Below are positions 1 through 57,618 of a DNA stretch of 64,000 bases, piece after piece; within the stretch, counting starts at the first letter, position 1; each line of letters begins with the position of its first letter. The position numbers and the translations under genes are program-made. Below the pieces are notes generated by a model. That model made no database searches and was not told where the DNA came from. It worked only from the letters and a program-made list of their open reading frames with translations. This stretch comes from Deltaproteobacteria bacterium GWA2_45_12 (GTDB lineage: Bacteria > UBA10199): the NCBI GenBank assembly GCA_001797365.1, contig MGPH01000011.1:20402-84401 (forward strand), read 5' to 3'.

Positions 1-40
1 TAATTGGGCCAGAGTAATGGGCGCGGCAAGCGAGCCGCCC

Positions 41-721
41 CTACAATGAATTTAAATAATATTCCGCCAATTTCAAATCATCCGGTGTTGTCACCTTGAT
101 GTTTTTGGGATCGCCTTCGACAACAAACACATCCGTCCCCATCCCTTCAACCATCATGGCTTCATCGGTTGAATTCTGGCCTAGGTCCGGATGGGACTTA
201 TACAATGCCGAAAGGATTCTGCAAGAAAAACCCTGGGGGGTTTGAGTGAGCCTTAATTGATTTCTGGGGATGGTTTTTTTAACCTTGTCCCCATCCATTT
301 CTTTTACAGTGTCACTGATAGGAACCACCGGAACCACAGCCCATTTGACTTTGGTTGCCTCAACAATTTTTTTGATGAGATCTACCGAAACCAAGGGCCT
401 CACGGCATCGTGAACAAGAACAGTATCATCGTCTTGGGAATGTAAAAACTCAAAACCCTTTTTGACGGATTCGGCACGGGTGGCTCCACCGGTGATAAAA
501 ATACATGGGTCGGGAAACCCGACCCCTACGGTAGGGGCGGGGTCGCCCCGCCCTTGGGCAGGCAAACACACCACAATCTTCTCAAACAACCCTGTTTTCA
601 CAAATGCTTCCACCGACCATTGAAAAAGGGGTTTACCTTTTAATTCCAAAAATTGTTTGCGTGTTTGGCCGCCAAAACGGATTCCCAAACCTGCAGCGGG
701 GATGATGGCGTAATTGGACAT
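41..721 (-). CDS. ispD: 2-C-methyl-D-erythritol 4-phosphate cytidylyltransferase
   Basis: 226 aa. N-terminal IIPAAGLGIRFG nucleotide-binding motif and overall collinearity with E. coli IspD (VHDAVRP, TPQ motifs). The stop codon is supplied by the CTAC end of an adjacent REP. Confidence 0.85.
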   Translation of the reverse strand: MSNYAIIPAAGLGIRFGGQTRKQFLELKGKPLFQWSVEAFVKTGLFEKIVVCLPAQGRGDPAPTVGVGFPDPCIFITGGATRAESVKKGFEFLHSQDDDTVLVHDAVRPLVSVDLIKKIVEATKVKWAVVPVVPISDTVKEMDGDKVKKTIPRNQLRLTQTPQGFSCRILSALYKSHPDLGQNSTDEAMMVEGMGTDVFVVEGDPKNIKVTTPDDLKLAEYYLNSL

Positions 722-810
722 TGGTTATGTAGGGGCGAATCTTGCCTGCCCGCCTCTGGAGGGTATTCGCCCTTGTAGGGGCACGTTGAAGGGCGATCAC
801 AAGGATCGCC
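722..810. repeat. REP-type palindromic repeat cluster, family A (GTAGGGGCG...CGCCCCTAC)
   Basis: GTAGGGGCGAATCTTG.../...CAAGGATCGCCCCTAC. Related copies at 19-44, 1399-1490, 2950-3008, 12520-12580, 13560-13600, 14290-14350, 25830-25895, 28290-28320, 30090-30115, 31053-31079, 36590-36665 and 48745-48880. Confidence 0.85.
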
Positions 811-811
811 C

Positions 812-1396
812 CTACCTCAAAAAATTCCTCAAAATATCCTTCCCCACCTTTGTTAAAATGGATTCAGGATGAAACTGCACCCCTTCCACACGGTGCTGCT
901 TGTGGCGCACGGCCATAATTTCCCCTTCCTTGGTGGTGGCAGAAATTTCCAATACATCGGGCATCGATTCCGGACGAATCACCAAAGAATGATATCTCGT
1001 TGCCACAAAGGGATTTTCAATTCCTTCAAAAATGGTTTTATTGTCGTGTTTTATTTGCGACGTTTTTCCATGCATCACGCGCGCGGCACGGACAATTTCC
1101 CCTCCAAAAGCAGCGCCAATGGACTGATGCCCCAAACAAACCCCCAAAATGGGAATCATCCCGGTAAATTCTTTGATGAGCGGCACAGAAATACCCGCTT
1201 CTTTCGGGGTACATGGGCCGGGAGAAATGACGATCCATTTTGGATTCATTCCCCGGATATCAGCCAGAGTACATTCGTCATTTCTGAAAACACGAATCTC
1301 CTTTTCGGGGTTTTGTCCTGCATCCTGTAAAATTTCCCCAAAATACTGGACCAGGTTATAGGTAAACGAATCGTAATTATCGATGATTAATAACAT
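812..1396 (-). CDS. trpG: anthranilate synthase component II / glutamine amidotransferase (TrpG/PabA type)
   Basis: 194 aa class-I GATase. Motifs [21 protein letters not shown] catalytic Cys, HPES. Immediately downstream of trpE. Confidence 0.8.
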
Positions 1397-1445
1397 AATT
1401 GTACGGACGAACCTTGCCTGCCCGCCTCAGGAGGGTGTTCGCCCA

Positions 1446-2945
1446 TCAATATTGGCCCATCACGGGCGAACACAAGGTTCGCCCGTACACGTTTTCTAAA
1501 GCCTTTAAAACCCCCCGGGCCTTGTTCTGGCATTCCTTATACTCCAGGCGCGCATCCGAATTAAAAACAATACCGGCGCCCGCTTGAACATAAACTTTCT
1601 TTCCCTTGAAAAAAGCCGTGCGGATGGCAATGGCCGTGTCGCAATTTCCATTAAACCCGATATACCCAACACATCCCCCATAAACCCCACGACGCAAGCC
1701 CTCAAGCTCTTCGATAATTTCCATGGCCCTTATTTTAGGCGCCCCTGTCAGTGTCCCAGCAGGAAAGGTGGCACGGATAAGATCATAGGCATCCCTGCCT
1801 TTTTTTAGCATTCCTGAGACATGCGAAACCAAGTGCATCACATGCGAATACCGCTCCACAATTTCCAACTCATCCACGGTGACACTGCCTATTTCACACA
1901 CCCGTCCCAAATCATTGCGGCCAAGGTCAACCAGCATGATGTGCTCGGCACGTTCTTTGGGATCTTCTCTTAATTCTTCTTCGAGTTCGAGATCCTCTTT
2001 TTCGGTATATCCACGTCTGCGCGTACCTGCAATGGGCCGGAGTTCGGCTCTTTTTCCTTCAAGACGCACCATCACTTCAGGAGAAGCCCCTACCACGGCC
2101 AGATCATCAAAATGTAAAAAGTAAAGGTAAGGGGAAGGATTTAATCGCCTGAGTACGCGATAAAGTTCAAAAGGATCAATGTCCGTTTTAGCTTCGTACC
2201 TCGTAGACAACACCACCTGGAAAACATCTCCTGCCTTGATATACTCACGCGCTTTTTCAACCATGCCCATGAACTCTTTTTCGGTGTGCCTGACACGCGG
2301 GGTTTCCGGGGTTGTCTTCTTCTTTTTGGAAACAGAAGGGATGGGCTTTCTTAATTGGCGAACGAGGGTTTCAATCTTTACACAGGCTTTTTGATACAAG
2401 CCTTTAACAGAAGTCCCATCAAGATAAATATTCACCACAATTTTGATGGTCTGTTTAAAATTATCAAACATTAAAAGCGTATCTGCGATCACAAAAAAAG
2501 CTTCTTCCACGCCAAGGTCATCTAAACTTGCTTCTTTGATTTTTTCAAATGAACGGACAACATCATAACTCAAAAAACCCACCGCTCCCCCAAAAAAACG
2601 GGGCAAACCGGGAACTTCAACCGGTTTAAAAGGTTTCATCACCTCTTTGACTGCCGATAAGGGATCCCCAGAAATTGTTTGAACCGTCTTTTTCTTCCCC
2701 GATAAAAGAGTCAATTGGTCGTTACGAACCTTAAGAACCATTCGTGGATTAGTTCCCAGAAAACTGTACTGCCCCCATTTTTCTCCCCCTGTGGCACTTT
2801 CAAGCAAAAAATCATATTTTCCGGAACGAATTTTTAAAAAAGCAGACACAGGAGTATCAAGATCGGCCGGGATTTCGGCATACAAAGGGATGAGATTCCC
2901 TTTTTTGGCTAATGTTTGAAATTCTTGGAGTGTAAGAGAAAACAT
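1446..2945 (-). CDS. trpE: anthranilate synthase component I
   Basis: 499 aa chorismate-binding enzyme (LLESA..GG..GRYSF-like, GAGIV). Its last ~15 codons are encoded by a REP element at 1446-1490. Confidence 0.85.
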   Translation of the reverse strand: MFSLTLQEFQTLAKKGNLIPLYAEIPADLDTPVSAFLKIRSGKYDFLLESATGGEKWGQYSFLGTNPRMVLKVRNDQLTLLSGKKKTVQTISGDPLSAVKEVMKPFKPVEVPGLPRFFGGAVGFLSYDVVRSFEKIKEASLDDLGVEEAFFVIADTLLMFDNFKQTIKIVVNIYLDGTSVKGLYQKACVKIETLVRQLRKPIPSVSKKKKTTPETPRVRHTEKEFMGMVEKAREYIKAGDVFQVVLSTRYEAKTDIDPFELYRVLRRLNPSPYLYFLHFDDLAVVGASPEVMVRLEGKRAELRPIAGTRRRGYTEKEDLELEEELREDPKERAEHIMLVDLGRNDLGRVCEIGSVTVDELEIVERYSHVMHLVSHVSGMLKKGRDAYDLIRATFPAGTLTGAPKIRAMEIIEELEGLRRGVYGGCVGYIGFNGNCDTAIAIRTAFFKGKKVYVQAGAGIVFNSDARLEYKECQNKARGVLKALENVYGRTLCSPVMGQY

Positions 2946-8566: not shown

Positions 8567-8766
8567 AATTTCTCTCCCAATATTCATCCCCCTTTTCCGC
8601 CGAAGGACGGATCAGTCCTTTGGCTGAAAAAAAGGGGGACAAAGGGGGATTTGTTCCCGTGCGTGCTTGCCTTCGAACCTTTAAATATAAACCGGAAACG
8701 GAGATGGGCCCAAATCCCCCCTACCCCCCTTTTTTAAAGGGGGAATGCATCCTCTAAAAAGCCTCT

Positions 8767-10643: not shown

Positions 10644-10710
10644 GAAAATAGTAAGATGGTTCGACCACCGCATAGCGGGGTCCCGTTTACGGGACGGGGC
10701 TCATGTCCAT

Positions 10711-10738
10711 GTAAGGGCAATTCATGAATTGCCCTTAC
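10711..10738. repeat. REP family B: perfect 28-bp palindrome GTAAGGGCAATTCATGAATTGCCCTTAC
   Basis: Identical or near-identical copies at 14697-14724, 37419-37446, 39707-39748 (1.5 copies), 57553-57580, and variant 32400-32427. All sit in short spacers between genes. Confidence 0.9.
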
Positions 10739-10757
10739 AAAAATAGGACACCCTGAG

Positions 10758-11624
10758 CTAAGTCGAAGGGTCACTCTCATCTTCAACAAAGATATCTTTT
10801 TCCAGATCACGGATGCTTTTGATGGAAGATTCAAGTTCATCAATAAGGGCACTTGATTCCAAATCAAGAGCTTCCATAGCCGTACTTTCGGCCGTAAAAT
10901 CATCTTCTATAGGAACCGATTTTTCTTCGGAAGAAGCTTGGGGCTCTATCGTTTCCAAATCTTTAAGTGTAGGCAAATCCGAGAGCGATTTAAGGCTGAA
11001 AATTTCCAAGAATGTTTTGGTGGTTCCATACATGATGGGCTTACCCAGTTCTTCACTGCGGCCCACAATGCGCACCAGATCACGATCGAGCAATGTCTTG
11101 ATCACACCGCCACTGTCGACGCCTCGAATCTCTTCAATCTTTTGGCGGGTGGCAGGTTGTTGGTAGGCCACAATGGCTAAAGTTTCCATGCTGGGATTGG
11201 ACAAGCGGGCTTTGGGAATCTTTTGGAGATTCTTTAAAAAAGAACCCACATGAGCCTTGGTACGAAATTGGAAACCTCCTGCCACTTCCACCAACTCAAA
11301 ACCACGATCGGCAGACATTTGGTATTCGCAGCTAAGCTCACTTAACGCATCCTTGATATCCCCAAGGGAAACTTCCATTTCCATCTGGCTTTGCGCTTCT
11401 TTTAACTGCGCCAAAGGATCCGCTTCTTCCCTTTCTTCCGCATTTTGTTCAATCCCTTCGGCCTCGGGGATTGCTTCACCAGAAGCCTTCTCCACGGAAT
11501 CTTCAATTTTTGCTGTTTCTTTGGGTTCTGTTTTAAGTAATTTTCTTAAATCAGAAGTCGAAAGAGGTTCCGGCGAGACAAAAAGAAGGGCTTCAATAAT
11601 TGATTTGATTTGGGTTTTTTCCAT
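10758..11624 (-). CDS. scpB: segregation and condensation protein B
   Basis: IEALLFVSPEPL winged-helix motif with an acidic C-terminal tail. Adjacent to scpA. Confidence 0.8.
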   Translation of the reverse strand: MEKTQIKSIIEALLFVSPEPLSTSDLRKLLKTEPKETAKIEDSVEKASGEAIPEAEGIEQNAEEREEADPLAQLKEAQSQMEMEVSLGDIKDALSELSCEYQMSADRGFELVEVAGGFQFRTKAHVGSFLKNLQKIPKARLSNPSMETLAIVAYQQPATRQKIEEIRGVDSGGVIKTLLDRDLVRIVGRSEELGKPIMYGTTKTFLEIFSLKSLSDLPTLKDLETIEPQASSEEKSVPIEDDFTAESTAMEALDLESSALIDELESSIKSIRDLEKDIFVEDESDPST

Positions 11625-11736
11625 AAATTATTTACTAAAGTCATGGTTCGACCACCGCGTAGCGGGGTCCCGTTTGCGGGACGGGGCTCACCATGTCCAT
11701 TATTTTTTAATGGACACCCTGAGCATAGTCGAAGGG

Positions 11737-12510
11737 TCACTCGCCATTTACAGCATCCATTACAGGAATCTCACTAACTTCCATTTTCCTGCGCACACGA
11801 ATAACGCCTCGTTCATCGGTCTGAAAAATCTGGACCATCCTGAGTCTACCCATTTCAAGCAAGGCCAAAAAAGTAACCACAATACTATGACGCGTTATTT
11901 CTCCTTCAAACATTTCTTCAAACAGGAGACTTTCAACATTCTGCAGTTTATCCACAATCTGATAAATACGATCGGTGATTGAAACCCGTTCAACCTCTAT
12001 TTGATGGACCGTATGTTTGGGAGCCCGTTTTAAAATTTCACCAAAGGCCTTTAATAAATGAAAGGGCTCAATTTCCACCCATTCCTGGTCTTCTTTGGTT
12101 TCATCAGGAAGTGCCATTTTGGGTCTTTTAAAAACATCGCGCAAAAGCATGGGACGCCCGCTTAACCATCCCGCCGCCCTCTTATATTTTTGATATTCCA
12201 AAAGACGGACCATCAAATCGGCCCGGGGATCGGGTTCTTCTGCTTTTTCTTCGTCATCTTGACGAACCAACAAACGTGACTTGATGTGTGTTAGCTCGGC
12301 GGCTATCAAAATAAACTCCCCCGCCACATCAATGTTGAGGTCTTGCATCAAGTCAAGATATCCCAAATATTCCTTAAGAATGAAAGCAATGGGGATATTG
12401 GCAATATCAAGATCGTTCTTTTTGATTAAATGCAAAAGCAGGTCCAGCGGCCCTTCAAAAAGATCGAGATTGATTCGGTAGTCCTGTGTGTTTTGTGTTT
12501 CGGTTGACAT
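11737..12510 (-). CDS. scpA: segregation and condensation protein A
   Basis: LDLFEGPLDLLLHLI motif characteristic of ScpA. The listed N-terminal 17 aa are REP-encoded, so the start is placed at MSTETQ. Confidence 0.8.
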   Translation of the reverse strand: MSTETQNTQDYRINLDLFEGPLDLLLHLIKKNDLDIANIPIAFILKEYLGYLDLMQDLNIDVAGEFILIAAELTHIKSRLLVRQDDEEKAEEPDPRADLMVRLLEYQKYKRAAGWLSGRPMLLRDVFKRPKMALPDETKEDQEWVEIEPFHLLKAFGEILKRAPKHTVHQIEVERVSITDRIYQIVDKLQNVESLLFEEMFEGEITRHSIVVTFLALLEMGRLRMVQIFQTDERGVIRVRRKMEVSEIPVMDAVNGE

Positions 12511-12572
12511 GTGTTGGTATGGGCGAATCTTGTATTCGCCCCTATACATCAGGGCGATCACGAGGATCGCCC

Positions 12573-13568
12573 CTACGATAATCCCATCGCCTCATTGGCT
12601 TCGGCTAATGTTTGCCCCGCCACCATGCGGGCCTTTTTAGCCCCTTCCGCCAAAATATCACCAATTATTTTTGGATCTTTTTTCAATTCATTTCTTTTCT
12701 CACGAAAAGGCTTAAAAGTTTCCGTCATATTTTTAATGAGAATTTTTTTGCAATCAATGCATCCTATTTTGGCTGTGCGACAATCAAGATTCACCTGTCC
12801 TATCTCCTCTTTTGAAGACACTTCCTTGTGATAAGCATAAATGGGACAAATATCGGGATTTCCAGGATCGGTGCGTCTTTGACGGGCAGGGTCGGTTATA
12901 TGTTTAAGCAGTTTGTCGTTGAATGTTTTTTCATCATCGGAAAGATAAATACAGTTCTGATAACTTTTTGACATTTTTCGCCCGTCGGTTCCAGGAACTT
13001 TGGGAACCGTTGTCAAAAAAGTTTCGGGTTCGGGAAATATATCTTTGTACAAATGATTGAACCGGCGCACCACCTCGCGTGAAAGCTCGATATGCGCCAC
13101 CTGGTCCTGACCCACAGGAACTTTGTGGGCCTTGTAAATGGCCACATCGGCCGTTTGCAAAAGAGGGTACCCTAAAAATCCATACGTGGATAAATCCTTC
13201 CCTGTCAACTGTTGTTGAATTTCTTTGTAACTAGGGACTCGTTCAAGCCATCCAAGTGGAGTGATCATCGAAAAAAGCAGATGCAATTCGGCATGCTCGG
13301 GCACCTTGGATTGAACAAATAAAACGCATTTCTCTGGAGAAACATCACACGCCAGCCAATCAAGCACCATTTCCTTAAGCGAGCTCTGGACAATATCCAC
13401 ATGGTCGTATTCCGTGGTCAAACTATGCCAGTCAGCCACAAAAAAATAACATTGATACTTGTTTTGCAGTACAACCCAATTGCGCAGCACCCCAAAATAA
13501 TGCCCCAAATGGAGCAAGCCCGTAGGGCGCATACCAGAGACGATAATTTGTTTTTGCATAATTTTCAT
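12573..13568 (-). CDS. trpS: tryptophanyl-tRNA synthetase
   Basis: GMRPTGLLHLGHY (HIGH-type) and KMSKS motifs. 331 aa. Confidence 0.85.
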   Translation of the reverse strand: MKIMQKQIIVSGMRPTGLLHLGHYFGVLRNWVVLQNKYQCYFFVADWHSLTTEYDHVDIVQSSLKEMVLDWLACDVSPEKCVLFVQSKVPEHAELHLLFSMITPLGWLERVPSYKEIQQQLTGKDLSTYGFLGYPLLQTADVAIYKAHKVPVGQDQVAHIELSREVVRRFNHLYKDIFPEPETFLTTVPKVPGTDGRKMSKSYQNCIYLSDDEKTFNDKLLKHITDPARQRRTDPGNPDICPIYAYHKEVSSKEEIGQVNLDCRTAKIGCIDCKKILIKNMTETFKPFREKRNELKKDPKIIGDILAEGAKKARMVAGQTLAEANEAMGLS

Positions 13569-14357: not shown

Positions 14358-14681
14358 CTACATCACCGGATCCAACGCTCCCACAGGTTCAGGAGATTTA
14401 GAAGGAAGATAAACCAAAACGGGATCAATGGGTTCTATTGGTTTGGAATCCGTAGGGACAATCCTAGGATTGTCCCTACCCGCATCAGAATTATTTGTAG
14501 ATTCATTTGACACCGAAGGTTTGTAAGGCAAATCGTAAACCTGTTTGGAAGATGTGTCTTCAGTCTCACCTTCCAAAGAAGGCGGTGTTGTTTGCGGCCC
14601 CACGGGACCAAGGTCTTGGGCGTGAGCGACTCCATTTAAAAATAAAAGGAATGTTATAATTTTTAATATCGATTCATTCAT
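14358..14681 (-). CDS. small secreted hypothetical protein (REP-containing)
   Basis: Signal-peptide-like N-terminus MNESILKIITFLLFLNGVAHA. A family-C REP lies in frame inside it (encoding DNPRIVPT). Pro/Ser-rich. Confidence 0.35.
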   Translation of the reverse strand: MNESILKIITFLLFLNGVAHAQDLGPVGPQTTPPSLEGETEDTSSKQVYDLPYKPSVSNESTNNSDAGRDNPRIVPTDSKPIEPIDPVLVYLPSKSPEPVGALDPVM

Positions 14682-14720
14682 GACGGACCTGTCCCGGTAA
14701 GGGCAATTCATGAATTGCCC

Positions 14721-15818
14721 CTACGATTCCTGAAATATTTTCACATTCTCCAATTCCTTGGCCAAGCTTGGATCTTTCTCTTTTAGCTTGTTCCATTTAA
14801 CTTTGGCTTGAGCCCATTGCTTCTGGTCAAAATCAACAAGGATTTGATTATAGAGACCCCGAGCCTCTTCCGAATTAAGGGTGCTTACTTTCGCATAAGC
14901 ATTCTCCGCTTTTTCGTATTGCTTTAAATTACGATATAAATTGCCTTCGATCAGCCACAAATCACTTGAATCCCTTACCGCTCTTGCCTTATTTATCCAA
15001 AATAAGGCCCCGTTGGTATCATTGTTTTTGGCATAGACCATGGCTAGCTGCTTCATGAGCAATTCATTGTATCCCCCCATCTCCAAGGCTTTGCGGTAAG
15101 ACTCACTGGCTTCCACCAACAATCCCATTTTTTCATAACAAAAACCCAAATTATGCAGGACAAAAACATTCTCCTGTCCCATGGCACGCATTTTTTTATA
15201 AACTTCGATCGCTTGGGGATAATGGTGAAGATCGCGATACACGTTCCCCAAAAGCCCCAACACTTGCAGATTTGTGGGAGCATGCGCTATCCATTGGGCA
15301 AGATAATTCAAGGCCTGATCGTTCTTCCCTGCTTCCCTGGCCAAAATTGTTTTGGATTTAAGAGAATCAAGAGTTTCTTCAATTTTTATTTCAAAGCGGC
15401 GGCTTAATTCAGGTTGTGAAATAAGTTTTTTGGACCAGTCGGCATAATCACTTCTTAATCCTATCACATGAATCACTTCCCCTTGGGGGCCCTTGTTTTC
15501 AAAAACAACCCGATGGATAGTCAAAGCGGGAAACAAAATTCCTTCAGCCTCAAAAACCATTTTTCTTAAATCTTCTTCGGAAATCAAAGAGTCCTGCAAA
15601 ATTATTTTTGCTTCAAGCGGGAATAATTCAAAAACAAAGAGCCGGAACAATTTTGCTGCAAGATCCGTTTTTATTTTTTCATCGGATACCGTTTGAGGAG
15701 TTTCTTTTATCGGCTCTGCCTGTTTTTGATGTGTGTTTTGAGCTTCATCAAACCACCAATCTTGGAGACGGGCACACCCACAAAACCAAACAAAAAAAAG
15801 GATCCAAAACCATTTCAT
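14721..15818 (-). CDS. TPR-repeat lipoprotein
   Basis: Start at MKWFWILFFVWFCGCA (lipobox-like). Multiple TPR-like helices (AL.YL.QWIA, LG.VY..L..Y..A...Y). Confidence 0.6.
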   Translation of the reverse strand: MKWFWILFFVWFCGCARLQDWWFDEAQNTHQKQAEPIKETPQTVSDEKIKTDLAAKLFRLFVFELFPLEAKIILQDSLISEEDLRKMVFEAEGILFPALTIHRVVFENKGPQGEVIHVIGLRSDYADWSKKLISQPELSRRFEIKIEETLDSLKSKTILAREAGKNDQALNYLAQWIAHAPTNLQVLGLLGNVYRDLHHYPQAIEVYKKMRAMGQENVFVLHNLGFCYEKMGLLVEASESYRKALEMGGYNELLMKQLAMVYAKNNDTNGALFWINKARAVRDSSDLWLIEGNLYRNLKQYEKAENAYAKVSTLNSEEARGLYNQILVDFDQKQWAQAKVKWNKLKEKDPSLAKELENVKIFQES

Positions 15819-15987
15819 ATCTTTGTTTGTATACAGCACTTTTGCGTCCTTGCCAAATGGGGAGACAAACCCCCAATAAGTACCCCCCGAAGTCAAAAAA
15901 CCCCCAACCCCAGGCAAGCCAAGCTTCCTATAATAAAAAAATACTTAATAATTACATATATTTAGATTTGAATTCTCCCTAAGTTTT

Positions 15988-25056: not shown

Positions 25057-25824
25057 TTAGTACATCACCTTCTTCAACACCAACCCATACGCCGGCGCGG
25101 TCATTCCGGCTTTTTTTCGGTCGCGGCTTTTGAGGATTTTTTGAATGTCTTTTTCGGTGAGTTTACCCCGGCCCACATCTACAAGAGTCCCCACCATGTT
25201 TCGCACCATGTGTTTTAAAAAGCCGGGGCCGGTGAAGGTGAGGGTGATGATGGCCCCACCCGTGCTGTATGGGCGAACACAAGGTTCGCCCGTACGGATC
25301 AAAATATTATCCACCCTCCTCACTGTCGTCTTTACATTGCTGTCAGAAGCACAAAAGGACTTGAAATCATGCCTGCCCACCAACACCTTGGCCGCACGCC
25401 TCATGGCAGGAATATTTAACGGATAAGGAACTCGCCAGGAATATTCGGTTAAAAAGGGGGAAGGGATGGATGAATTAAAAATGGTGTATTGATAAACTTT
25501 TTTCTTCACGGACCTTTGCGCATGAAAACTTGAAGGAACAATTTGAACTTTCAAAACAGAGATATCCGCGGGCAATGAGGAATTAAGCCCCATCAACAAA
25601 TTGATGGGCTTCATTGAAAAAGGCTCAACATCAAAATGGGCCACTTGGAAAAGCGCATGCACTCCGGCATCGGTACGGCCAGAAACATTGGTTATTATTT
25701 TTTTTTTGAAAATGGCGGAAAGTTTTTCTTCCAAAACAGATTGAACCGTGGGGCCCTGGGGTTGGACTTGCCAACCGAGATAGTTGGTTCCTTTGTATTG
25801 GAGGGTAAGTTTGATGCGTGGCAT
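25057..25824 (-). CDS. truA: tRNA pseudouridine(38-40) synthase
   Basis: KLTLQYKGTNYLGWQVQ and GRTDAGVHA catalytic Asp motif, plus HHMVRN-like FLKHMVRN. Contains an in-frame REP at 25266-25294. Confidence 0.8.
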   Translation of the reverse strand: MPRIKLTLQYKGTNYLGWQVQPQGPTVQSVLEEKLSAIFKKKIITNVSGRTDAGVHALFQVAHFDVEPFSMKPINLLMGLNSSLPADISVLKVQIVPSSFHAQRSVKKKVYQYTIFNSSIPSPFLTEYSWRVPYPLNIPAMRRAAKVLVGRHDFKSFCASDSNVKTTVRRVDNILIRTGEPCVRPYSTGGAIITLTFTGPGFLKHMVRNMVGTLVDVGRGKLTEKDIQKILKSRDRKKAGMTAPAYGLVLKKVMY

Positions 25825-25895
25825 GGGAGGTAGGGGCGCTGCTTGCTGCGCCCTTATTTATGGTACCGCCCCATAGGGCGCAGCAAGCGGCGCCC

Positions 25896-26909
25896 CTACG
25901 AAATCAATTTCTCCGCAATCTGCACGGCATTTAGTGCGGCGCCTTTCAAAATTTGGTCACCACAGACAAAAAGATTGATCCCGTTTTCAATCCATAAATC
26001 CTTGCGAATGCGGCCCACATAAACTTCGTCCTTGCCGGAAACGTCAACGGGCATGGGGAAATAATTTTCTTTGGGGGAATCCACCACCTTCACTCCCGGC
26101 ATTTTGGCCAGGGCCTGCCTTACTTTTTCAACGGAAACGGGTTTCCCCAATTCCAGATGAATGGCCTCGGCATGCGCCCTAAAAATGGGGACGCGCACGC
26201 AAGTTGGCGAGACAAGGATTTCCTTGTCATGAAAAATCTTGCGGGTTTCATGGACCACCTTCATTTCTTCCTGAGAATACCCTTCTTCGCCAACAGCAGA
26301 ATCATGGGAAAATAAGTTAAAGGCAATGGGATGTTTGAAAATAGCGCCCCTTGCAACGGGTTTTCCTTCCAGATAAGCACGGGTTTGGCTTTCCAACTCA
26401 TCAATGGCCTTGGCCCCGGCACCGGACACGGCCTGGTAGGTGGCAATGGTCATTCTTTTGATGGGGGCCAGGCAATGAATGGGCCATATCGCCATGGCCG
26501 CGATAATGGTGGTGCAGTTGGGGTTGGCAATAATCCCCTTATGCTTGGCTATATCTTCCGGATTGACTTCAGGCACCACCAAGGGAACATTGGGATCCAT
26601 ACGGTAGACACTTGAATTATCAACCACCACGGCTCCCGCCTTCACCGCAGATGGAGCAAATTCAAGGCTTCTGGCCCCTCCTGCAGAAAAAAGAGCGATA
26701 TCAATGTTTTTGAAAGAATCGTGGGTCAGCAGAGAAACGGGATATTCCTTCCCGCAGAATTTCATTTTTTTACCAACAGATTTTTTTGAAGCCAAAAGAC
26801 GTAATTCCCCGATGGGAAAATTTCTTTTGGCTAAAACACGTAAAAATTCTTCCCCCACCGCACCGGTCGCTCCGGCAATGGCAATGTTGTATTTGGATTT
26901 TTTTTGCAT
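25896..26909 (-). CDS. asd: aspartate-semialdehyde dehydrogenase
   Basis: NIAIAGATGAVG Rossmann N-terminus. 337 aa. Overall Asd architecture. Confidence 0.85.
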   Translation of the reverse strand: MQKKSKYNIAIAGATGAVGEEFLRVLAKRNFPIGELRLLASKKSVGKKMKFCGKEYPVSLLTHDSFKNIDIALFSAGGARSLEFAPSAVKAGAVVVDNSSVYRMDPNVPLVVPEVNPEDIAKHKGIIANPNCTTIIAAMAIWPIHCLAPIKRMTIATYQAVSGAGAKAIDELESQTRAYLEGKPVARGAIFKHPIAFNLFSHDSAVGEEGYSQEEMKVVHETRKIFHDKEILVSPTCVRVPIFRAHAEAIHLELGKPVSVEKVRQALAKMPGVKVVDSPKENYFPMPVDVSGKDEVYVGRIRKDLWIENGINLFVCGDQILKGAALNAVQIAEKLIS

Positions 26910-27064: not shown

Positions 27065-28150
27065 CTACGTTATATTTTTGCAAATCACATCCCCCATCTC
27101 TTTGGTTCCCAACAATTTTGTTCCGGGGGTATAAATATCTCCTGTTCGATAGCCCTCATTTAAGACTTTCTTTACAGCCTCACGAATTTTGCCGCCGGCT
27201 TCCTTTTGTCCAAAGGAATATTCAAGCATCATGGCGGCCGATAAAATAGTGGCAATGGGGTTGGCCTTGTTCTGCCCGGCAATGTCGGGGGCCGAGCCAT
27301 GAATGGGTTCATACATCCCCTTGGAAGTTTCATTAAGTGAAGCGGAAGGAAGCATGCCAATGGAACCGGTAAGCATGGAAGCTTCATCACTTAAAATATC
27401 TCCAAACATGTTTTCAGTCAGGATCACATCAAACTGTTTGGGGTTGCGAATAAGTTGCATGGAACAATTATCTACATACATGTGTGAAAGTTCCACTTCA
27501 GGATAATCTTTATGCATTTGTGTGACCACTTTACGCCACAATTCGGTGCATTCAAGCACATTGGCTTTATCAATGGAACAAAGTTTTTTACGGCGCTTGG
27601 TGGCCAGCTCAAAAGCCACCTTGGCAATACGTTTGATTTCGCTGGTGGTGTAAACAAGAGTGTTGACCCCCTGCTCTTCACCATTGGGGAGCTTAGTCAC
27701 TCCGCGCGGTTTTCCAAAATAAGCACCGCCCGTCAGTTCACGCACGACCATCATGTCAATGCCTTCCACCACTTCACGCTTAAGTGTTGAAGCATCTAAA
27801 AGAGCATCAAAAATAACCGCGGGGCGCAAATTGGCAAACAGATTAAGCTCGGAGCGCAATCCCAACAATGCACGTTCCGGGCGAAGCGAATAATCAAGGG
27901 GTTCCCATTTAGGGCCCCCCACAGCCCCTAAAAGAACAGAGTCAGCCTGCTTGGCCAATTTTAAGGTAGCCGGGGGTAAAGGATGCCCTGTTTGGTCGTA
28001 AGCACAACCTCCCACAAGAGCCTCTTCAAAAGTAAATAAAAGGGAACTGGCCTTTTCAAGAACCTTTAAAACTTTCACGGCTTCCCGGGTGACTTCAACA
28101 CCAATTCCATCACCGGGAAGAACAGCAATTTTGTATGATTTGTTGGACAT
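27065..28150 (-). CDS. leuB: 3-isopropylmalate dehydrogenase
   Basis: Start at [17 protein letters not shown], with the isocitrate/isopropylmalate dehydrogenase signature. The track ORF (484 aa) is extended upstream through REPs and a small ORF, and is trimmed here to 362 aa. Confidence 0.85.
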
Positions 28151-28157
28151 AATTTCT

Positions 28158-28185
28158 GTAGGGACAATCCTAGGATTGTCCCTAC
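28158..28185. repeat. REP family C: palindrome GTAGGGACAATCCTAGGATTGTCCCTAC
   Basis: Copies at 14452-14479 (inside a small CDS) and 28519-28546 (variant). Confidence 0.9.
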
Positions 28186-28229
28186 GTACGGGCGTATCGT
28201 CATAGCGTACGGGCGGGGTAACCCCGCCC

Positions 28230-28514
28230 CTACGTTTTTTTAAAAAACGCCTCCAATTTTTTCCTGGCTTCAGAGACAGGATCCTGTTGTAGGGGCGCTG
28301 CTTGCTGCGCCCCCACGAAATATTCGCAAAAATTGAATTTTTCTTTATCCACCACACGATCAGCCTGGGGTTCACGGCATTCATTGTAGGCCGCACGATC
28401 ATAAAAACCGCAATTAAGACAAATGTGGGCATCCCGCCCACAATGGTCACACACGTCGCGGAAGCCGGGTTTTTCCGAAATCGTGTCTTCTTTTTTGCAG
28501 AAAAAACAAAACAT
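28230..28514 (-). CDS. small Cys-rich (zinc-ribbon-like) hypothetical protein
   Basis: 94 aa with CFFC..x..CDHC..x..CLNC..x..C pattern. Flanked by family-C REPs and contains a family-A REP in frame. Could be REP-generated noise. Confidence 0.3.
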
Positions 28515-28552
28515 ACCAACGTAGGGACAACCCTAGGGTTGTCCCTACAAAT

Positions 28553-30943: not shown

Positions 30944-31080
30944 AATTTTTTATCCCCTACGCTCGTTGGCTTCGGGGACGCGCCTTGCCGGGTCAAAACC
31001 CTCCGCCTTAGGCGGAGAATCTTCCAGGGCTTGCCCTGGGGTTCATACCGTTGATGGGCGCGGCAAGCGGCGCCCCTACA

Positions 31081-35778: not shown

Positions 35779-36576
35779 TCAACCAAAATATCTGGCAAAA
35801 TAATAGACAGCAGGAGCCGCAAACAAAAGGGCGTCCAAACGGTCGAGAATACCTCCGTGGCCGGGAATAAGATTGCCTGAATCTTTCACACCAAAACCTC
35901 TTTTTAAGAAGGACTCACTTAAATCTCCCACGGGTCCTATAATGCCCACAAGCAGCGCCACCAGCACAAGTAAAGAAAGTGGGTACCCTGGATAGAAAAA
36001 AGCTCTCACAATGAACGCCGCCACTATCGAAGCAACAAGCCCTCCCACAAAACCTTCCACTGTTTTTCCAGGAGAAAGAAGGGGTGCCAATTTGTGTCTT
36101 CCCCATTGATGCCCTGCTATATAAGCTCCGGTGTCACTGGCAAAGGTGCAAGCCAGCAGTAAAAAAATCCAGAAAAGATAATGAGGAAGCCCTAGAGCCC
36201 ACCCTACATGAGTAAAAAGGAGAACAATGTAGAAAAAGCCGATAAAATGATATCCCAAACCAACAACGCGTTTTTCAAAAGGATCCTTCCCACCAAACTG
36301 AAGAATAAAAAGAGAACCTAGCGATGCGGCCAAAACCCGAAGCACATCCTCGGCAGAATAAGCCAAGAAAACAAAGTAGCCGGTGGCAATAAAAACGATA
36401 CCGATAAGCACCCAATGTTTTAAAAATTTTCTTCGGGAACCTGCAATTAAAAGAAACTCATCCATGGCCACAGCCGCCACCAGCACCACAATGCCTTTGA
36501 TAAGAAAAGGGGAACCCCACAAAAGGAGGCAAACAAGAAAAAAAGCAAGGATGATTCCTGAAATCCAACGTAGCAT
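35779..36576 (-). CDS. cdsA: phosphatidate cytidylyltransferase
   Basis: Polytopic protein with C-terminal KR..G.KDSG.L.PGHGG..DR.D signature. The listed N-terminal 15 aa are REP-derived, so the start is placed at MLRWIS. Confidence 0.75.
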   Translation of the reverse strand: MLRWISGIILAFFLVCLLLWGSPFLIKGIVVLVAAVAMDEFLLIAGSRRKFLKHWVLIGIVFIATGYFVFLAYSAEDVLRVLAASLGSLFILQFGGKDPFEKRVVGLGYHFIGFFYIVLLFTHVGWALGLPHYLFWIFLLLACTFASDTGAYIAGHQWGRHKLAPLLSPGKTVEGFVGGLVASIVAAFIVRAFFYPGYPLSLLVLVALLVGIIGPVGDLSESFLKRGFGVKDSGNLIPGHGGILDRLDALLFAAPAVYYFARYFG

Positions 36577-36661
36577 TGATTCTCCCGTAGGGGCAGCTCG
36601 CTTGGCTAGCGCCCTTCTCATTGGATGTTTCCCATTTACAGGCGCTAGCCAAGCGGCGCCC

Positions 36662-37402
36662 CTACATTAATTGTTCACTGGTCTTCCCATACCGTCTCTC
36701 CCGTTTTTGATATTCTGCAATCGCAGCCATGAAATGATGCTGATCAAAATCGGGCCACAAGCATTCCTCAAAAATAAACTCGGCATAGGCTCCCTGCCAC
36801 AACAAGAAATTGCTGATACGGGACTCTCCACTGGTACGAATGATAAGATCGGGGTCGGGCATTAAGGCTGTGTCTAAAAAAGAAGCCAAAATCTCTTCAT
36901 TGACACTACTTGTCTCCAAACCGGCACTAAACATGGCACGCACAGCTCTTATGATTTCATCGCGTGAGCCATAACTTAAAGCCAGGGTGAGCATCATTTT
37001 TTCCCCGTGGGCTGTTTCCTTCTTCACCATGGCAATGGTCTCTTGCACATCCTGGGGCAGTTTTAAAATATCCCCAATGGTATTAAAGCGAATCCCCTTG
37101 TCGAGCATTTTCTGTTTTTTCTCAAGGAGGAAAGCTTTAAGCAACCCCATCAAAGCGTGGACCTCTTCAGGGGGACGCTGCCAATTTTCCTTGGAAAAAG
37201 CATAAAGGGTCAGATAACCAATGCCCACATCGTGGGCAACTTCAATAATATCCTCCGACACCTTCACCCCACGCGCATGCCCTTCAACCCGGTGCAAGCC
37301 CCGGGCCTTGGCCCAACGCCCATTGCCGTCCATGATGATGGCGATATGTTTAGGAAGATTGACTCGAGTCAATGGGGACATAAGATTGACGAAAGAATCC
37401 AA
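36662..37402 (-). CDS. uppS: undecaprenyl diphosphate synthase
   Basis: HIAIIMDGNGRWA motif. Alternative start at Met-8 (37381). Confidence 0.85.
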   Translation of the reverse strand: MDSFVNLMSPLTRVNLPKHIAIIMDGNGRWAKARGLHRVEGHARGVKVSEDIIEVAHDVGIGYLTLYAFSKENWQRPPEEVHALMGLLKAFLLEKKQKMLDKGIRFNTIGDILKLPQDVQETIAMVKKETAHGEKMMLTLALSYGSRDEIIRAVRAMFSAGLETSSVNEEILASFLDTALMPDPDLIIRTSGESRISNFLLWQGAYAEFIFEECLWPDFDQHHFMAAIAEYQKRERRYGKTSEQLM

Positions 37403-38059: not shown

Positions 38060-39689
<1,630 letters not shown>

Positions 39690-39768
39690 GGTAATTTTGC
39701 CTTTGCGTAAGGGCAATTCATGAATTGCCCTTACTGAATTGCCCTTACATAAGGACATTCTCAATCCC

Positions 39769-40635
39769 TCACGAAGCATCCGCAGTGGGTTCTACAGTTG
39801 CTGAAAAACTATCAACCTGAGCTCCGCCCTCAAAAGAATCTTTTTTGGCGACATAGGCCTTGCCGGTTCCTTCAACCACCGTTGAACGGCGACGCTTGCC
39901 CTCCGGCTTTTTGGAATCGGTATCGTTACCGGCCTTCAAAGCCATGGCTTCACGTTTTTCCAGGCCACTCAAACACGCATCAGCTGCTTTGGTAATAAAC
40001 ACCTGAATACTGCGCTGAGCATCATCATTGGCGGGAATAACATGGTCAATGGGGTCGGGATTGCAATTGGTATCCGTGATGGCAATGACAGAAATCCCCA
40101 GAATATTGGCTTCATGAACGGGAATTTTTTCTACATGGGGGTCAACAACAAAAATGGCTCCGGGTAAACCGTTCATTTTTTTGATACCGCTTAAAACTTC
40201 CTGCAGTTTTGCTATTTCACGGTCAAAACCCAAACGTTCTTTTTTGGTGTATCCCGTGAAATCATTTTTTTCACGACGTGTTTCCAGTTCAATAAGACGT
40301 TCAACACTGTGACGAATGGTGGAAAAATTGGTCAACATGCCACCCAGCCAGCGTTTGGTCACAAAGGGCATTTTGGCACGAATGGCTTCCTGTTCAACAA
40401 TGCCCTGAGCTTGGGCTTTGGTTCCGACAAACAAGACATCCCGGCCTTCAGAAACAATTTTTTCAAGGGCATTGAATGCTTTTTGAGCCAGCCCTTGGGT
40501 TTGCTGCAAATCAATAATATGGATCCCCGAACGCACACCATAAATATAAGGTTTCATTTTGGGGTTCCAACGACGTGTTTGATGCCCAAAATGGCAACCG
40601 GCATCCAACATTTCTTCAATCAAGATATCAGACAT
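39769..40635 (-). CDS. rpsB: 30S ribosomal protein S2
   Basis: MLDAGCHFGHQTRRWNPKM canonical S2 N-terminus with an acidic/basic C-terminal extension. Confidence 0.9.
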   Translation of the reverse strand: MSDILIEEMLDAGCHFGHQTRRWNPKMKPYIYGVRSGIHIIDLQQTQGLAQKAFNALEKIVSEGRDVLFVGTKAQAQGIVEQEAIRAKMPFVTKRWLGGMLTNFSTIRHSVERLIELETRREKNDFTGYTKKERLGFDREIAKLQEVLSGIKKMNGLPGAIFVVDPHVEKIPVHEANILGISVIAITDTNCNPDPIDHVIPANDDAQRSIQVFITKAADACLSGLEKREAMALKAGNDTDSKKPEGKRRRSTVVEGTGKAYVAKKDSFEGGAQVDSFSATVEPTADAS

Positions 40636-54142: not shown

Positions 54143-54781
54143 ATGCCCGACAATAAGATAATTGTGGAATCCCGAAGGCTTATATTGGCCTCGGCTTCGC
54201 CCCGCCGCAGCCAGCTTTTGGCAGAGGCTGGTTTCACCTTTGAAATCATCCCTTCAACCATAGATGAAAAATGGGACCCAAAGCTTTCACCAGAAGAGAA
54301 TGTGAAGAAAATCGCGCTGGAGAAGGCAACGGATGTGGCAAGAAAAACCCCTCGACCCTTCGATCACCGCGTAGCGGTGGTCGAACCATCTACCCTTATC
54401 TTAGCTGCCGACACCATCGTCGTTTTGGGAACTCGCATCCTCGAGAAACCCAGAGACAAAGCTGAAGCCAGCCAGTTTCTCAAACTGCTTTCAGGCCGGA
54501 CCCACAGCGTTTTAACAGGGTACACAATACTGGAAGGTTCTGGTACAATAGCGGCACATGGCGTGGAAGAATCCAAAGTGAGTTTTAAAATTTTAAATGA
54601 TGATCAAATAGGAAAATACATTCAAACCGGCGAGCCCATGGACAAGGCTGGGGCGTACGCGGCACAAGGCATCGGCAGCCAATTCATCGAAAAAATTGAA
54701 GGGTCTTTAAGTAATGTGATTGGGTTACCGATGGAAGTAGTGGCACCTATTTTGAAAACAGTTATGAGTTATGAGTTATGA
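54143..54781 (+). CDS. maf: Maf-like nucleoside triphosphate pyrophosphatase
   Basis: ILASASPRRSQLL N-terminal motif. 212 aa. The C-terminus MSYEL is encoded by a heptamer tandem repeat. Confidence 0.8.
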   Translation: MPDNKIIVESRRLILASASPRRSQLLAEAGFTFEIIPSTIDEKWDPKLSPEENVKKIALEKATDVARKTPRPFDHRVAVVEPSTLILAADTIVVLGTRILEKPRDKAEASQFLKLLSGRTHSVLTGYTILEGSGTIAAHGVEESKVSFKILNDDQIGKYIQTGEPMDKAGAYAAQGIGSQFIEKIEGSLSNVIGLPMEVVAPILKTVMSYEL

Positions 54782-54795
54782 GTTATGAGTTATGA
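54761..54795. repeat. tandem heptanucleotide repeat (GTTATGA)x5 spanning maf stop and next-gene start
   Basis: Five perfect direct copies read directly from the sequence. Encodes MSYEL-*-MSYEN across the gene junction. Confidence 0.9.
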
Positions 54796-57515: not shown

Positions 57516-57618
57516 GGAAAAATTTGATGGTTTGACCAAGGCTCATCTCCATGTAAGGGCAATTCATGAATTGCCCTTACAAAAAGGACATACTTAAGCC
57601 AGGTCGAAGGTACCTTTT

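What the first reader, a model, noticed from the sequence alone, without database searches (positions are those of the whole stretch)
25266..25294. REP elements inserted in frame inside protein-coding genes (truA, ispD, trpE tail, small proteins)
In truA the sequence GTATGGGCGAACACAAGGTTCGCCCGTAC encodes an extra ~10 aa (..EPCVRPYSTGG..) between conserved blocks that are directly adjacent in E. coli TruA. In ispD, 518-568 (CCCGACCCCTACGGTAGGGGCGGGGTCGCCCCGCC) encodes GRGDPAPTVGVGFPDP in a variable loop. The last 15 codons of trpE and the ispD stop codon are supplied by REPs. A family-C REP encodes DNPRIVPT inside ORF 14358-14681. This parallels Rickettsia palindromic elements, which add in-frame peptide segments to housekeeping proteins, and it is rarely reported outside that group.
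Basis: partly seen in the sequence, partly recalled or inferred. Interest (0 to 1): 0.65.

Follow-up and report, generated by a model that had tools for sequence, protein, structure and literature searches.

The report
REP palindromes inside housekeeping genes
Short mobile DNA hairpins (GTAG-type REP elements) that normally sit between genes have landed in frame inside truA, ispD, the end of trpE and a small secreted-protein gene of an uncultured bacterium, adding or replacing a few amino acids in surface loops; this is real, but it is a further example of a phenomenon already described in other bacteria.

Summary
A 29-nt palindrome at 25267-25295 (one base right of the stated coordinates) lies inside an intact truA gene. 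It is identical over 25 nt to a second copy in the trpE tail. It belongs to a GTAG-headed REP population: 58 head motifs in the window against about 7 expected. It encodes RTGEPCVRPY at the tip of a beta-hairpin, exactly where E. coli TruA shows a 10-residue gap.

The ispD, trpE-tail, ispD-stop and small-ORF claims are also correct. Two corrections apply. In ispD the REP pair occupies a variable segment and adds only 3-8 residues net. The small ORF is a real, conserved secreted protein.

Only 5 of 32 REP units lie inside coding sequence, although 91% of the window is coding. About 10 of 56 stop codons are the TAG of a REP head.

Relatives carry five different palindromic elements at the same TruA loop, and orthologs 87-91% identical differ by presence or absence.

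In-frame GTAG/CGTC REPs and donated TAG stops were described by Di Nocera et al. 2013 (PMC3733652). So this is a new member of a known kind. RAYT mobilisation is inferred, not shown.

The parts
25267..25295 (-). 29-nt REP palindrome inside truA. The coding strand reads GTACGGGCGAACCTTGTGTTCGCCCATAC. With the preceding C it forms 10 codons, R177-Y186 (RTGEPCVRPY).
   Evidence: an exact 25-nt twin at 1464-1488, with 0 expected by chance. RNA hairpin of -19.8 kcal/mol.
25057..25824 (-). truA, 255 aa, intact. All residues invariant across the family are present, including the GRTDAGVHA motif.
   Evidence: Pfam match; alignment A1; AF2 model, pLDDT 92.2; TM 0.91 to 1vs3/1dj0.
507..553 (-). Pair of REP hairpins inside ispD with their GTAG heads facing each other 1 nt apart (...CCCCTAC C GTAGGGG...). 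They encode residues 57-72 (GRGDPAPTVGVGFPDP).
41..721 (-). ispD, 226 aa.
   Evidence: Pfam IspD, E 3.1e-58; 100% identical to the MAG's own IspD.
20..44 (-). REP whose GTAG head contains the ispD TAG stop codon (41-43).
1401..1488 (.). REP doublet between trpE and trpG. Its part 1446-1488 is read as the last 14-15 codons and the stop of trpE (NVYGRTLCSPVMGQY*). Its head is GTAC, so the frame that gives TAG in other copies reads Tyr here.
1446..2945 (-). trpE, 499 aa. Homology to solved TrpE structures ends at residue 484.
791..815 (-). REP whose GTAG head contains the trpG TAG stop codon (812-814).
14452..14479 (.). Perfect 28-nt palindrome GTAGGGACAATCCTAGGATTGTCCCTAC inside the small secreted-protein gene. 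It encodes [11 protein letters not shown].
   Evidence: Identical copy at 28158-28185; near-identical copy (two compensating base changes) at 28521-28548.
14358..14681 (-). Gene for a 107-aa protein with a signal peptide. It belongs to a small conserved family with the motifs GPVGP, DLPYKPS and IPSKSPEP.GA.DP.
   Evidence: 11 homologs, E 5.6e-6 to 8.4e-4.
14697..14724 (.). REP between the TPR gene and the small gene. Its head supplies the TAG stop of ORF 14721..15917. Its inner ATG creates the spurious longer ORF start at 14711.
25830..25899 (.). REP doublet between asd and truA. The head at 25899 supplies the asd TAG stop (25896-25898).
   Evidence: (I2).
54359..54385 (+). 27-nt hairpin from a different repeat family inside maf. 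The wider 54350-54391 stretch encodes ..RPFDHRVAVVEPS... One arm is identical to intergenic copies at 10655 and 11642.

Best explanation
These are classical GTAG-headed REP elements: a GTAG-like head followed by a hairpin of 8-10 bp, such as GGGCGAAC-CTTGT-GTTCGCCC. They form a dense population in this genome and normally lie between genes, typically butted against the upstream gene so that the head's TAG serves as its stop codon.

Occasionally a copy ends up inside a gene. It is tolerated under three conditions. First, the element has no stop codon in 5 of its 6 reading frames; the GTAC-headed subfamily found in truA and the trpE tail has none in any frame. Second, the added length is a multiple of three; in truA it is 30 nt. 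Third, it falls in a structurally permissive place: the tip of a beta-hairpin in TruA, a variable loop in IspD, a low-complexity linker in the small protein, or the C-terminal tail of TrpE.

The encoded peptide is a by-product, not a designed domain. Purifying selection removes all other intragenic insertions.

What is shown: family membership, in-frame position, loop location, depletion from coding sequence, and presence/absence between close orthologs in relatives.

What is inferred: mobilisation by a RAYT (Y1/HUH) transposase acting on single-stranded hairpin DNA, and that the proteins remain functional.
For: Family membership:
- The truA copy is identical over 25 nt to the trpE-tail copy, with four more copies at 3 mismatches or fewer, against 0 expected.
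- There are 58 GTANGGRC heads against 6.75 expected. 43 of them are followed by a hairpin.

Insertion in truA:
- There is a 10-residue gap against E. coli TruA, and the 245-aa orthologs lack those residues.
- Removing the 30 nt leaves NILI-STGG-AIITL, a 4-residue turn like that of the short orthologs.

Structure:
- The AF2 model has pLDDT 92.2. The insert lies between strands 173-179 and 191-199, and residues 181-190 form the only low-confidence block, with mean pLDDT 60.
- The rest superposes on TruA crystal structures with TM 0.91.

Selection filter:
- Only 5 of 32 REP units lie wholly inside coding sequence, although 90.9% of the window is coding (binomial P = 9e-24).

Stop-codon donation:
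- 21 of 56 stop codons are TAG, and 10 of them are the TAG of GTAGGGGC.

Mobility in the lineage:
- Orthologs 91% identical (L007 vs L006) differ by a REP doublet in TruA loop 1, a net gain of 27 nt.
- Orthologs 87% identical (L003 vs L008) differ by a 79-nt REP doublet.
- P0005, 81% identical to P0002, lacks the loop-2 doublet.
- Five different palindromic elements occupy the same TruA hairpin tip in five lineages.

Transposase in relatives:
- A relative's contig carries a Y1_Tnp gene about 2 kb from truA. Sources annotate its homologs as 'REP element-mobilizing transposase RayT'.

Prior description of the kind: PMC3733652.
Against: - No near-identical ortholog with an empty site exists for the window's own truA. 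The closest is 58% identical. For this copy, insertion is therefore inferred from family membership plus the protein indel, not from a nucleotide-level empty site.
- No RAYT gene is present in the 64-kb window (tblastn). None of the top 120 RayT-like proteins is labelled as coming from this MAG.
- No target-site duplication is visible.
- In ispD, in the small protein and in L007 loop 1, the element replaces native residues rather than simply adding to them. A plain cut-and-paste insertion does not explain that by itself.
- Expression and activity of the decorated proteins are untested.
Confidence: 0.85

Rival explanations
1. Exaptation. The REP-derived segments are kept because they do something useful. 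The extra peptide might alter tRNA or partner binding. Alternatively the in-gene RNA hairpin might act as a translational pause, an RNase site or an mRNA stabiliser.
For: The same TruA hairpin tip is occupied by palindromic elements in at least five lineages. The truA hairpin is perfect and stable (-19.8 kcal/mol, z -2.3). Di Nocera et al. speculate about effects on pseudouridine synthases.
Against: The inserted sequences differ completely between lineages in family, length and peptide. So no peptide is conserved. Orthologs without any insert are common within the same clade (P0005, P0012, P0014, P0020). The insert is the only low-confidence, unstructured part of the model. Recurrence is expected if only a few loops tolerate insertions.
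Confidence: 0.08
2. Templated patch rather than transposition. REP sequence is copied into the gene by recombination, gene conversion or template switching at stalled forks, using another REP copy as donor. It overwrites the native loop sequence rather than being inserted by a RAYT.
For: In ispD, in the small protein and in L007 TruA loop 1, REP sequence replaces native residues. In L007, about 48 nt stand where L006 has about 21 nt. No target-site duplication is seen. No RAYT gene is in the window.
Against: The truA case is a clean gain of 30 nt with plausible ancestral flanks. REP/RAYT association is well established for GTAG REPs (PMC3733652), and RayT-like genes occur in relatives. Insertion followed by compensating deletion in a loop whose length is under selection explains the replacements equally well.
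Confidence: 0.15
3. Artefact or pseudogene. On this reading the palindrome in truA reflects a MAG misassembly at a repeat, or the genes that carry REPs are decaying.
For: The sequence comes from a metagenome-assembled genome, and REPs are repeats that can confuse assemblers.
Against: The repeat is only 25-29 nt, shorter than sequencing reads and typical assembly k-mers. Both flanks continue the same TruA reading frame. The ORFs are intact, with all family-invariant residues. The model is confident. Independent assemblies of relatives show the same kind of in-frame elements.
Confidence: 0.03

Closest known systems
Intragenic GTAG-tagged REPs (Di Nocera, De Gregorio and Rocco 2013, BMC Genomics 14:522; PMC3733652)
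   Same: Both are short stem-loops with a terminal GTAG, sometimes degenerate. Both occur as singletons and as head-head or tail-tail dimers. [quoted passage not shown] Pseudouridine synthase genes are among the hosts.
   Different: The host is a different, uncultured lineage. The S. maltophilia truA case in that paper is at residues 15-22, an N-terminal position possibly upstream of the true start. Here the REP is internal, at residues 177-186, at a beta-hairpin tip. That paper does not report recurrent colonisation of one TruA loop across a clade.
Rickettsia palindromic elements (RPEs; Ogata et al. 2000, as cited in PMC3733652)
   Same: Both are palindromic repeats inserted in frame in housekeeping genes whose products probably remain functional. 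In both, the inserts lie in permissive regions.
   Different: RPE-1 elements are much longer. RPE-4 and RPE-6 correspond to CGTC-type repeats according to PMC3733652. The elements here are 25-29-nt GTAG-type REPs of a family shared with many phyla. There is no sequence relationship to RPEs.
REPIN/RAYT systems (Bertels and Rainey 2011, PMC3116915; Nunvar et al. 2010, PMC2817692)
   Same: Both have a GTAG head plus a hairpin, frequent inverted doublets and high copy number. A RayT-like Y1 transposase is present in relatives.
   Different: No RAYT was found in this window. The truA copy is a single hairpin, not a REPIN doublet. REPINs are described as extragenic.
E. coli REPs within 15 nt of stop codons (study cited as ref. 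17 in PMC12306157)
   Same: In both, REPs abut the 3' end of genes.
   Different: Here the stop codon itself lies inside the REP head in about 18% of genes. This matches what PMC3733652 describes for GTAG REPs.

Membership tests
GTAG-type REP (repetitive extragenic palindrome) | Short (about 20-40 bp) stem-loop or imperfect palindrome | tested here: met
   The stem is 8-10 bp (up to 13-15 bp in the perfect 28-nt palindromes) and the loop 2-5 nt in most units. The truA copy folds at -19.8 kcal/mol.
GTAG-type REP (repetitive extragenic palindrome) | GTAG tetranucleotide, or a degenerate form of it, at one terminus | tested here: met
   GTANGGRC occurs 58 times against 6.75 expected. Most heads are GTAG. 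The truA and trpE-tail copies carry GTAC/GTAT. PMC3733652 describes degeneracy at the second and third positions (GYAG, GYRG, GTRG, GTMG) and GTGG; the fourth-position variants GTAC/GTAT seen here are not among the forms it lists.
GTAG-type REP (repetitive extragenic palindrome) | High copy number, dispersed in the genome | tested here: met
   There are 32 units at about 24 loci in 64 kb. A whole-genome count could not be made.
GTAG-type REP (repetitive extragenic palindrome) | Predominantly extragenic, downstream of ORFs, often as inverted dimers | tested here: met
   27 of 32 units lie outside coding sequence although 91% of the window is coding. There are dimers at 729-815, 1401-1488, 12517-12576, 25830-25899 and 36587-36665.
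GTAG-type REP (repetitive extragenic palindrome) | Cognate RAYT (Y1 transposase) gene in the same genome | tested here: inconclusive
   None is in the window (tblastn, best E 1.3). RayT-like genes are present in relatives. The rest of the MAG could not be searched.
Rickettsia palindromic elements (RPE) | Membership of the RPE sequence families (RPE-1 long elements; RPE-4/6 of CGTC type) | tested here: not met
   The elements here are 25-29 nt and GTAG-headed. RPE-4/6 are classed as CGTC repeats in PMC3733652.
Rickettsia palindromic elements (RPE) | In-frame presence inside intact genes at permissive positions | tested here: met
   truA hairpin tip, ispD variable loop, trpE tail, linker of the small protein.
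REPIN (mobile inverted REP doublet) | Two inverted REPs separated by a conserved spacer and moving as one unit | tested here: not met
   The truA element is a single hairpin. The ispD element is a doublet with a 1-nt spacer. Intergenic doublets exist but their spacers differ. Mobility as a unit was not tested.
MITE | Terminal inverted repeats flanking an internal region, with target-site duplication | tested here: not met
   No target-site duplication or internal region is present. The whole element is the hairpin.

The most novel reading that the evidence does not exclude
In this uncultured clade, palindromic repeats may be a systematic engine of loop evolution in core enzymes, at a density that may rival Rickettsia. 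In one 64-kb window, 5 of 56 genes carry repeat-encoded residues. The tip of one TruA beta-hairpin has been colonised independently by at least five different palindromic elements from several families in different lineages. This may reflect genuine mutational targeting of particular sites, for example local single-stranded or hairpin-prone DNA, and not only a selection filter for permissive loops.
Probability: 0.2. Interest if true: 0.55.

Novelty: new member of a known kind. Interest (0 to 1): 0.35.

Why it matters
It documents, with presence/absence evidence between close orthologs, that REP hairpins lengthen or rewrite surface loops and C-termini of essential enzymes in an uncultured lineage. 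It also shows that they supply roughly one stop codon in five there.

There are two practical consequences. REPs inflate ORF calls: leuB, tsf, scpA and cdsA are all over-extended through upstream REPs in a naive ORF list. They also seed recurring 'VGA..', 'GRP..', 'GDH..SPL' peptides in protein databases, which can mislead homology searches and gene-start annotation in MAGs.

Biologically it extends the RPE-like phenomenon, but it does not change the concept.

Tried and rejected
1. k-mer repeat maps with k = 10 and k = 12 were swamped by chance matches and were abandoned. I used the head-motif scan and the hairpin scan instead.

2. I looked for an empty-site ortholog of the window's own truA. 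The nearest homolog is only 58% identical, so no nucleotide-level empty site exists for this copy. Filled/empty pairs were found only among relatives.

3. DNA for P0005, the ortholog empty at both loops, could not be fetched because the sample file is too large. That comparison is therefore at the protein level only.

4. I searched for a RAYT in the window by tblastn and found none. I then searched the protein database with a relative's RayT to find one labelled with this MAG's name. None appeared in the top 120, so the result is inconclusive.

It could not give a genome-wide count for this MAG.

6. GTANGGRC heads inside trpE (2093), mlaD (51921) and at 16118, 20269, 43234, 48328, 55701 and 56445 have no hairpin. 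Together with the other hairpin-less heads their number is close to the chance expectation of about 7, so I rejected them as REPs.

7. REPs apparently inside leuB, tsf, scpA and cdsA were rejected as intragenic. The Pfam domains start well downstream of them, so the ORFs are over-extended.

8. The S. maltophilia truA REP from the literature is at residues 15-22, not at the same loop.

Full report
**What is at the coordinates**

The window comes from the MAG 'Deltaproteobacteria bacterium GWA2_45_12'. Its TruA and IspD are 100% identical to that record's proteins. The palindrome GTATGGGCGAACACAAGGTTCGCCCGTAC is at 25267-25295, one base to the right of the stated coordinates. It lies inside ORF 25057..25824 on the minus strand. 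That ORF is an intact 255-aa TruA: Pfam PseudoU_synth_1 at E 4.4e-42, with every family-invariant residue present.

On the coding strand the element reads GTAC-GGGCGAAC-CTTGT-GTTCGCCC-ATAC. With the preceding C it makes ten codons, R177-Y186 (RTGEPCVRPY).

**Is it a repeat, and is it more than chance?**

The 25-mer GTACGGGCGAACCTTGTGTTCGCCC occurs twice exactly, once in truA and once in the trpE tail at 1464-1488. It occurs four more times with three mismatches. No shuffle of the window gave any match.

All copies share one architecture: a GTAG-like head followed by a hairpin. The head motif GTANGGRC occurs 58 times against 6.75 +/- 2.5 expected. 43 heads are followed by a stem of 8-11 bp. Several subfamilies coexist:
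- GGGCGAxxC-TTGT-GxxTCGCCC
- GGGCGCCGC-TT-GCCGCGCCC
- GGGCGGGG-N3-CCCCGCCC
- the perfect 28-nt palindromes GTAAGGGCAATTCATGAATTGCCCTTAC and GTAGGGACAATCCTAGGATTGTCCCTAC.

This is the anatomy of classical GTAG-type REPs.

**Is the truA copy an insertion?**

phmmer against E. coli TruA (1dj0, 2nqp) opens a gap of exactly ten residues opposite GEPCVRPYST. T. thermophilus TruA is six residues shorter at that point. In an alignment of 34 homologs, the common 245-aa TruAs and several members of the window's own clade (P0005, P0012, P0014, P0020) have only a 2-4-residue turn there.

Removing the 30 nt leaves ...NILI-STGG-AIITL..., which looks like those short turns. That step is inference.

An AlphaFold2 model built on that alignment is confident (pLDDT 92.2, pTM 0.87). 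It places the insert between strands 173-179 and 191-199. Residues 181-190 form the only low-confidence block, with mean pLDDT 60. The model superposes on TruA crystal structures with TM 0.91. So the REP lengthens the tip of a beta-hairpin.

The closest ortholog is only 58% identical. For this particular copy there is therefore no nucleotide-level empty site.

*ispD (41..721, minus strand).* The quoted string is at 518-552. It sits within two hairpins, 507-525 and 535-553, whose heads face each other one base apart (...CCCCTAC C GTAGGGG...). They encode GRGDPAPTVGVGFPDP, residues 57-72.

This segment lies between the strand VVCLP and the conserved GG.TR motif, a region that varies naturally. 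The protein is only 3-8 residues longer there than its closest relatives, 4 longer than M. tuberculosis IspD and about 2 longer than E. coli IspD. So REP sequence has replaced native residues, or insertion was followed by deletion. It is not a clean 16-residue addition.

*trpE (1446..2945, minus strand).* Homology to solved TrpE structures ends at residue 484 (...GVLKALE). Residues 485-499 (NVYGRTLCSPVMGQY) and the stop codon are read from the REP doublet 1401-1488.

This tail is read in the frame that gives G|TAG in most copies. This copy has a GTAC head, so the frame reads Tyr and translation runs on for 13 more codons. The GTAC subfamily has no stop codon in any of its six frames. GTAG copies are open in five of six. 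Both statements come from reading the sequences.

*ispD stop codon.* The TAG at 41-43 is the TAG of a REP head.

*The small ORF.* With its start at 14681 it encodes a 107-aa protein with a signal peptide. An exhaustive phmmer search finds 11 homologs sharing the motifs GPVGP, DLPYKPS and IPSKSPEP.GA.DP. So it is a real gene. Its 28-nt palindrome (14452-14479, [11 protein letters not shown]) lies in the variable linker, and the total linker length is within the family's range.

**The picture across the window**

The window holds 32 REP units at about 24 loci. Only five lie wholly inside coding sequence: two in ispD and one each in the trpE tail, the small gene and truA. Yet 90.9% of the window is coding, which gives a binomial P of 9e-24.

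Apparent REPs inside leuB, tsf, scpA and cdsA are artefacts of ORFs that run upstream through stop-free REPs. The Pfam domains in those proteins start well downstream.

TAG is the commonest stop codon: 21 TAG, 18 TGA and 17 TAA among 56 ORFs. Ten of the TAGs are the TAG of GTAGGGGC, including those of ispD, trpG, trpS, asd and uppS.

A fifth gene, maf, carries a 27-nt hairpin from a different repeat family, within a stretch that encodes RPFDHRVAVVEPS. One of its arms is identical to intergenic copies: 3 matches against 0.01 expected. Maf is about 6 residues longer there than a solved homolog.

**Evidence from relatives**

TruA orthologs from the same clade vary from 243 to 288 aa. The variation is concentrated at two loops. 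I examined the DNA of six of them.

- L007 and L006 are 91% identical in protein. They differ at loop 1 by a head-out REP doublet, GTAGGGGCGCGGTTTCCGCGCCC-GGGCGGGGAAACCCCGCCCCTAC. It stands where the other has about 21 unrelated nucleotides, a net gain of 27 nt.
- Both L007 and L006 carry another doublet at loop 2, encoding VGAPFMAPGFDESNPY. That doublet is absent from P0005, which is 81% identical to P0002.
- L003 and L008 are 87% identical. They differ by a 79-nt REP doublet at loop 1.

At loop 2, the hairpin tip hit in the window, five lineages carry five different palindromic elements:
- a GTAC singlet in the window;
- a heads-in dimer in L001;
- a heads-out dimer in L006 and L007;
- CCCCCCTTATTTTAAGGGGGG in L003 and L008;
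- a hairpin of about 75 nt in L004.

IspD orthologs that are 90% identical (P0137 and P0138) likewise differ by a CCCCTCTCCC...GGGAGAGGGG palindromic element in the same loop that holds the REP pair in the window.

**Mechanism**

The best-supported account has three parts. REPs spread between genes. Rare copies land in genes. Only those that are in frame, free of stop codons and located in permissive loops or tails survive.

The depletion from coding sequence, the open frames and the loop positions are shown. Mobilisation by a RAYT is inferred. The window has no RAYT gene. A relative's contig has a Y1_Tnp gene about 2 kb from truA, and sources annotate its homologs as 'REP element-mobilizing transposase RayT'. 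None of the top 120 homologs is labelled with this MAG's name.

The cases where REP sequence replaces native residues (ispD, the small protein, L007 loop 1) leave room for a templated-patch route, or for insertion followed by deletion.

The inserted sequences are completely different between lineages, and orthologs without inserts are common. Both facts argue against a selected function for the peptide.

**Comparison with what is known**

Di Nocera, De Gregorio and Rocco (BMC Genomics 2013; PMC3733652) sorted prokaryotic REPs into GTAG- and CGTC-tagged superfamilies. [quoted passage not shown] They report that REPs lie entirely within ORFs in several species, most numerously in O. terrae and R. 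conorii. They report that more than half of such inserts are dimers encoding 20-30 residues. They also report that several tRNA pseudouridine synthase genes carry REPs. Their S. maltophilia truA case is at residues 15-22, not at the loop seen here.

The elements in the window meet the structural definition of GTAG REPs. They are not members of the RPE sequence families, although they behave like RPEs.

**Verdict**

Two corrections apply: ispD is a replacement rather than a clean addition, and the phenomenon is already documented outside Rickettsia. This is a new member of a known kind.

What is mildly new is the density in this lineage and the repeated, independent colonisation of one TruA hairpin tip by different palindromic families. 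I could not separate true targeting from a selection filter.

Noticed in passing
window: stops at 41, 812, 12573, 13592, 14721, 25896, 27065, 30116, 36662, 38793 (TAG) and 47624 (TAA): About one stop codon in five is supplied by the head of a REP (xxG TAG GGGC...). TAG is the commonest stop in the window (21 TAG, 18 TGA, 17 TAA). The REP at 31056-31079 begins one base after the psd stop. PMC3733652 describes this behaviour for GTAG REPs.
   Followed up: partly
window 54350-54391 (maf, 54143..54781 +): A 27-nt hairpin, TTCGATCACCGC-GTA-GCGGTGGTCGAA, lies in frame in maf within a stretch (54350-54391) that encodes RPFDHRVAVVEPS. Its arm GATGGTTCGACCACCGC is identical to intergenic copies at 10655 and 11642. 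Maf is about 6 residues longer in this loop than a solved homolog. This is a fifth gene with repeat-encoded residues, from a different repeat family.
   Followed up: partly
window 10654-10790 and 11640-11742 (partial copy at 57535-57620): A composite repeat of about 100-140 nt (GGTTCGACCACCGCrTAGCGGGGTCCCGTTTrCGGGACGGGGCTCA ... GGACACCCTGAGC..AGTCGAAGGGTCAC). One copy has the 28-nt palindrome GTAAGGGCAATTCATGAATTGCCCTTAC nested in its middle.
   Followed up: partly
window ORFs 27065..28519, 38793..39779, 11737..12561, 35779..36621, 14358..14711: Naive ORFs for leuB, tsf, scpA, cdsA and the small protein are over-extended at the 5' end because they read through stop-free REPs. Homologs of the small protein in public databases (P0242, P0246, P0252) show similar REP-like N-terminal extensions. 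This is an annotation hazard for MAGs.
   Followed up: partly
window 54760-54796: A perfect tandem array of 5.3 copies of the heptamer AGTTATG spans the maf stop codon and the start of the next gene (54785). A 7-nt unit could shift the reading frame by slippage.
   Followed up: no
window 28145-28552: The 400-nt spacer between leuA and leuB holds at least five REP units from three subfamilies (28158-28185, 28207-28233, 28289-28313, 28521-28548, plus a head at 28186). It is the densest cluster in the window.
   Followed up: no
L004 3512-4495 and L005 3428-4174: A RayT-like Y1 transposase gene lies about 2 kb from truA in a relative, among several toxin-antitoxin pairs (PIN/PhdYeFM, PIN/VapB, HicB). 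Many homologs of this transposase also carry a C-terminal DnaA-like domain (PF08299).
   Followed up: partly
L009-L088 (genome-contig scan): The REP core GGGCGAWYCTTGTRWTCGCCC occurs in MAGs labelled Armatimonadota, Geobacter, Thermodesulfobacteriota, Chloroflexi, Acidobacteriota, Nitrospira, Planctomycetes, Microbulbifer and even a Promethearchaeota (Asgard) bin (L035). Either the REP family is very ancient and widespread, or some bins are contaminated.
   Followed up: no
window 8725-8743 and 56515-56540: C-run/G-run palindromes (CCCCCTTTTTTAAAGGGGG and GGGGGAGGGGCTCTAGCCCCTCCCCC) lie between genes here. They resemble elements found in frame in relatives: the first resembles CCCCCCTTATTTTAAGGGGGG in TruA of L003/L008, the second the CCCCTCTCCC...GGGAGAGGGG element in IspD of L129.
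   Followed up: no
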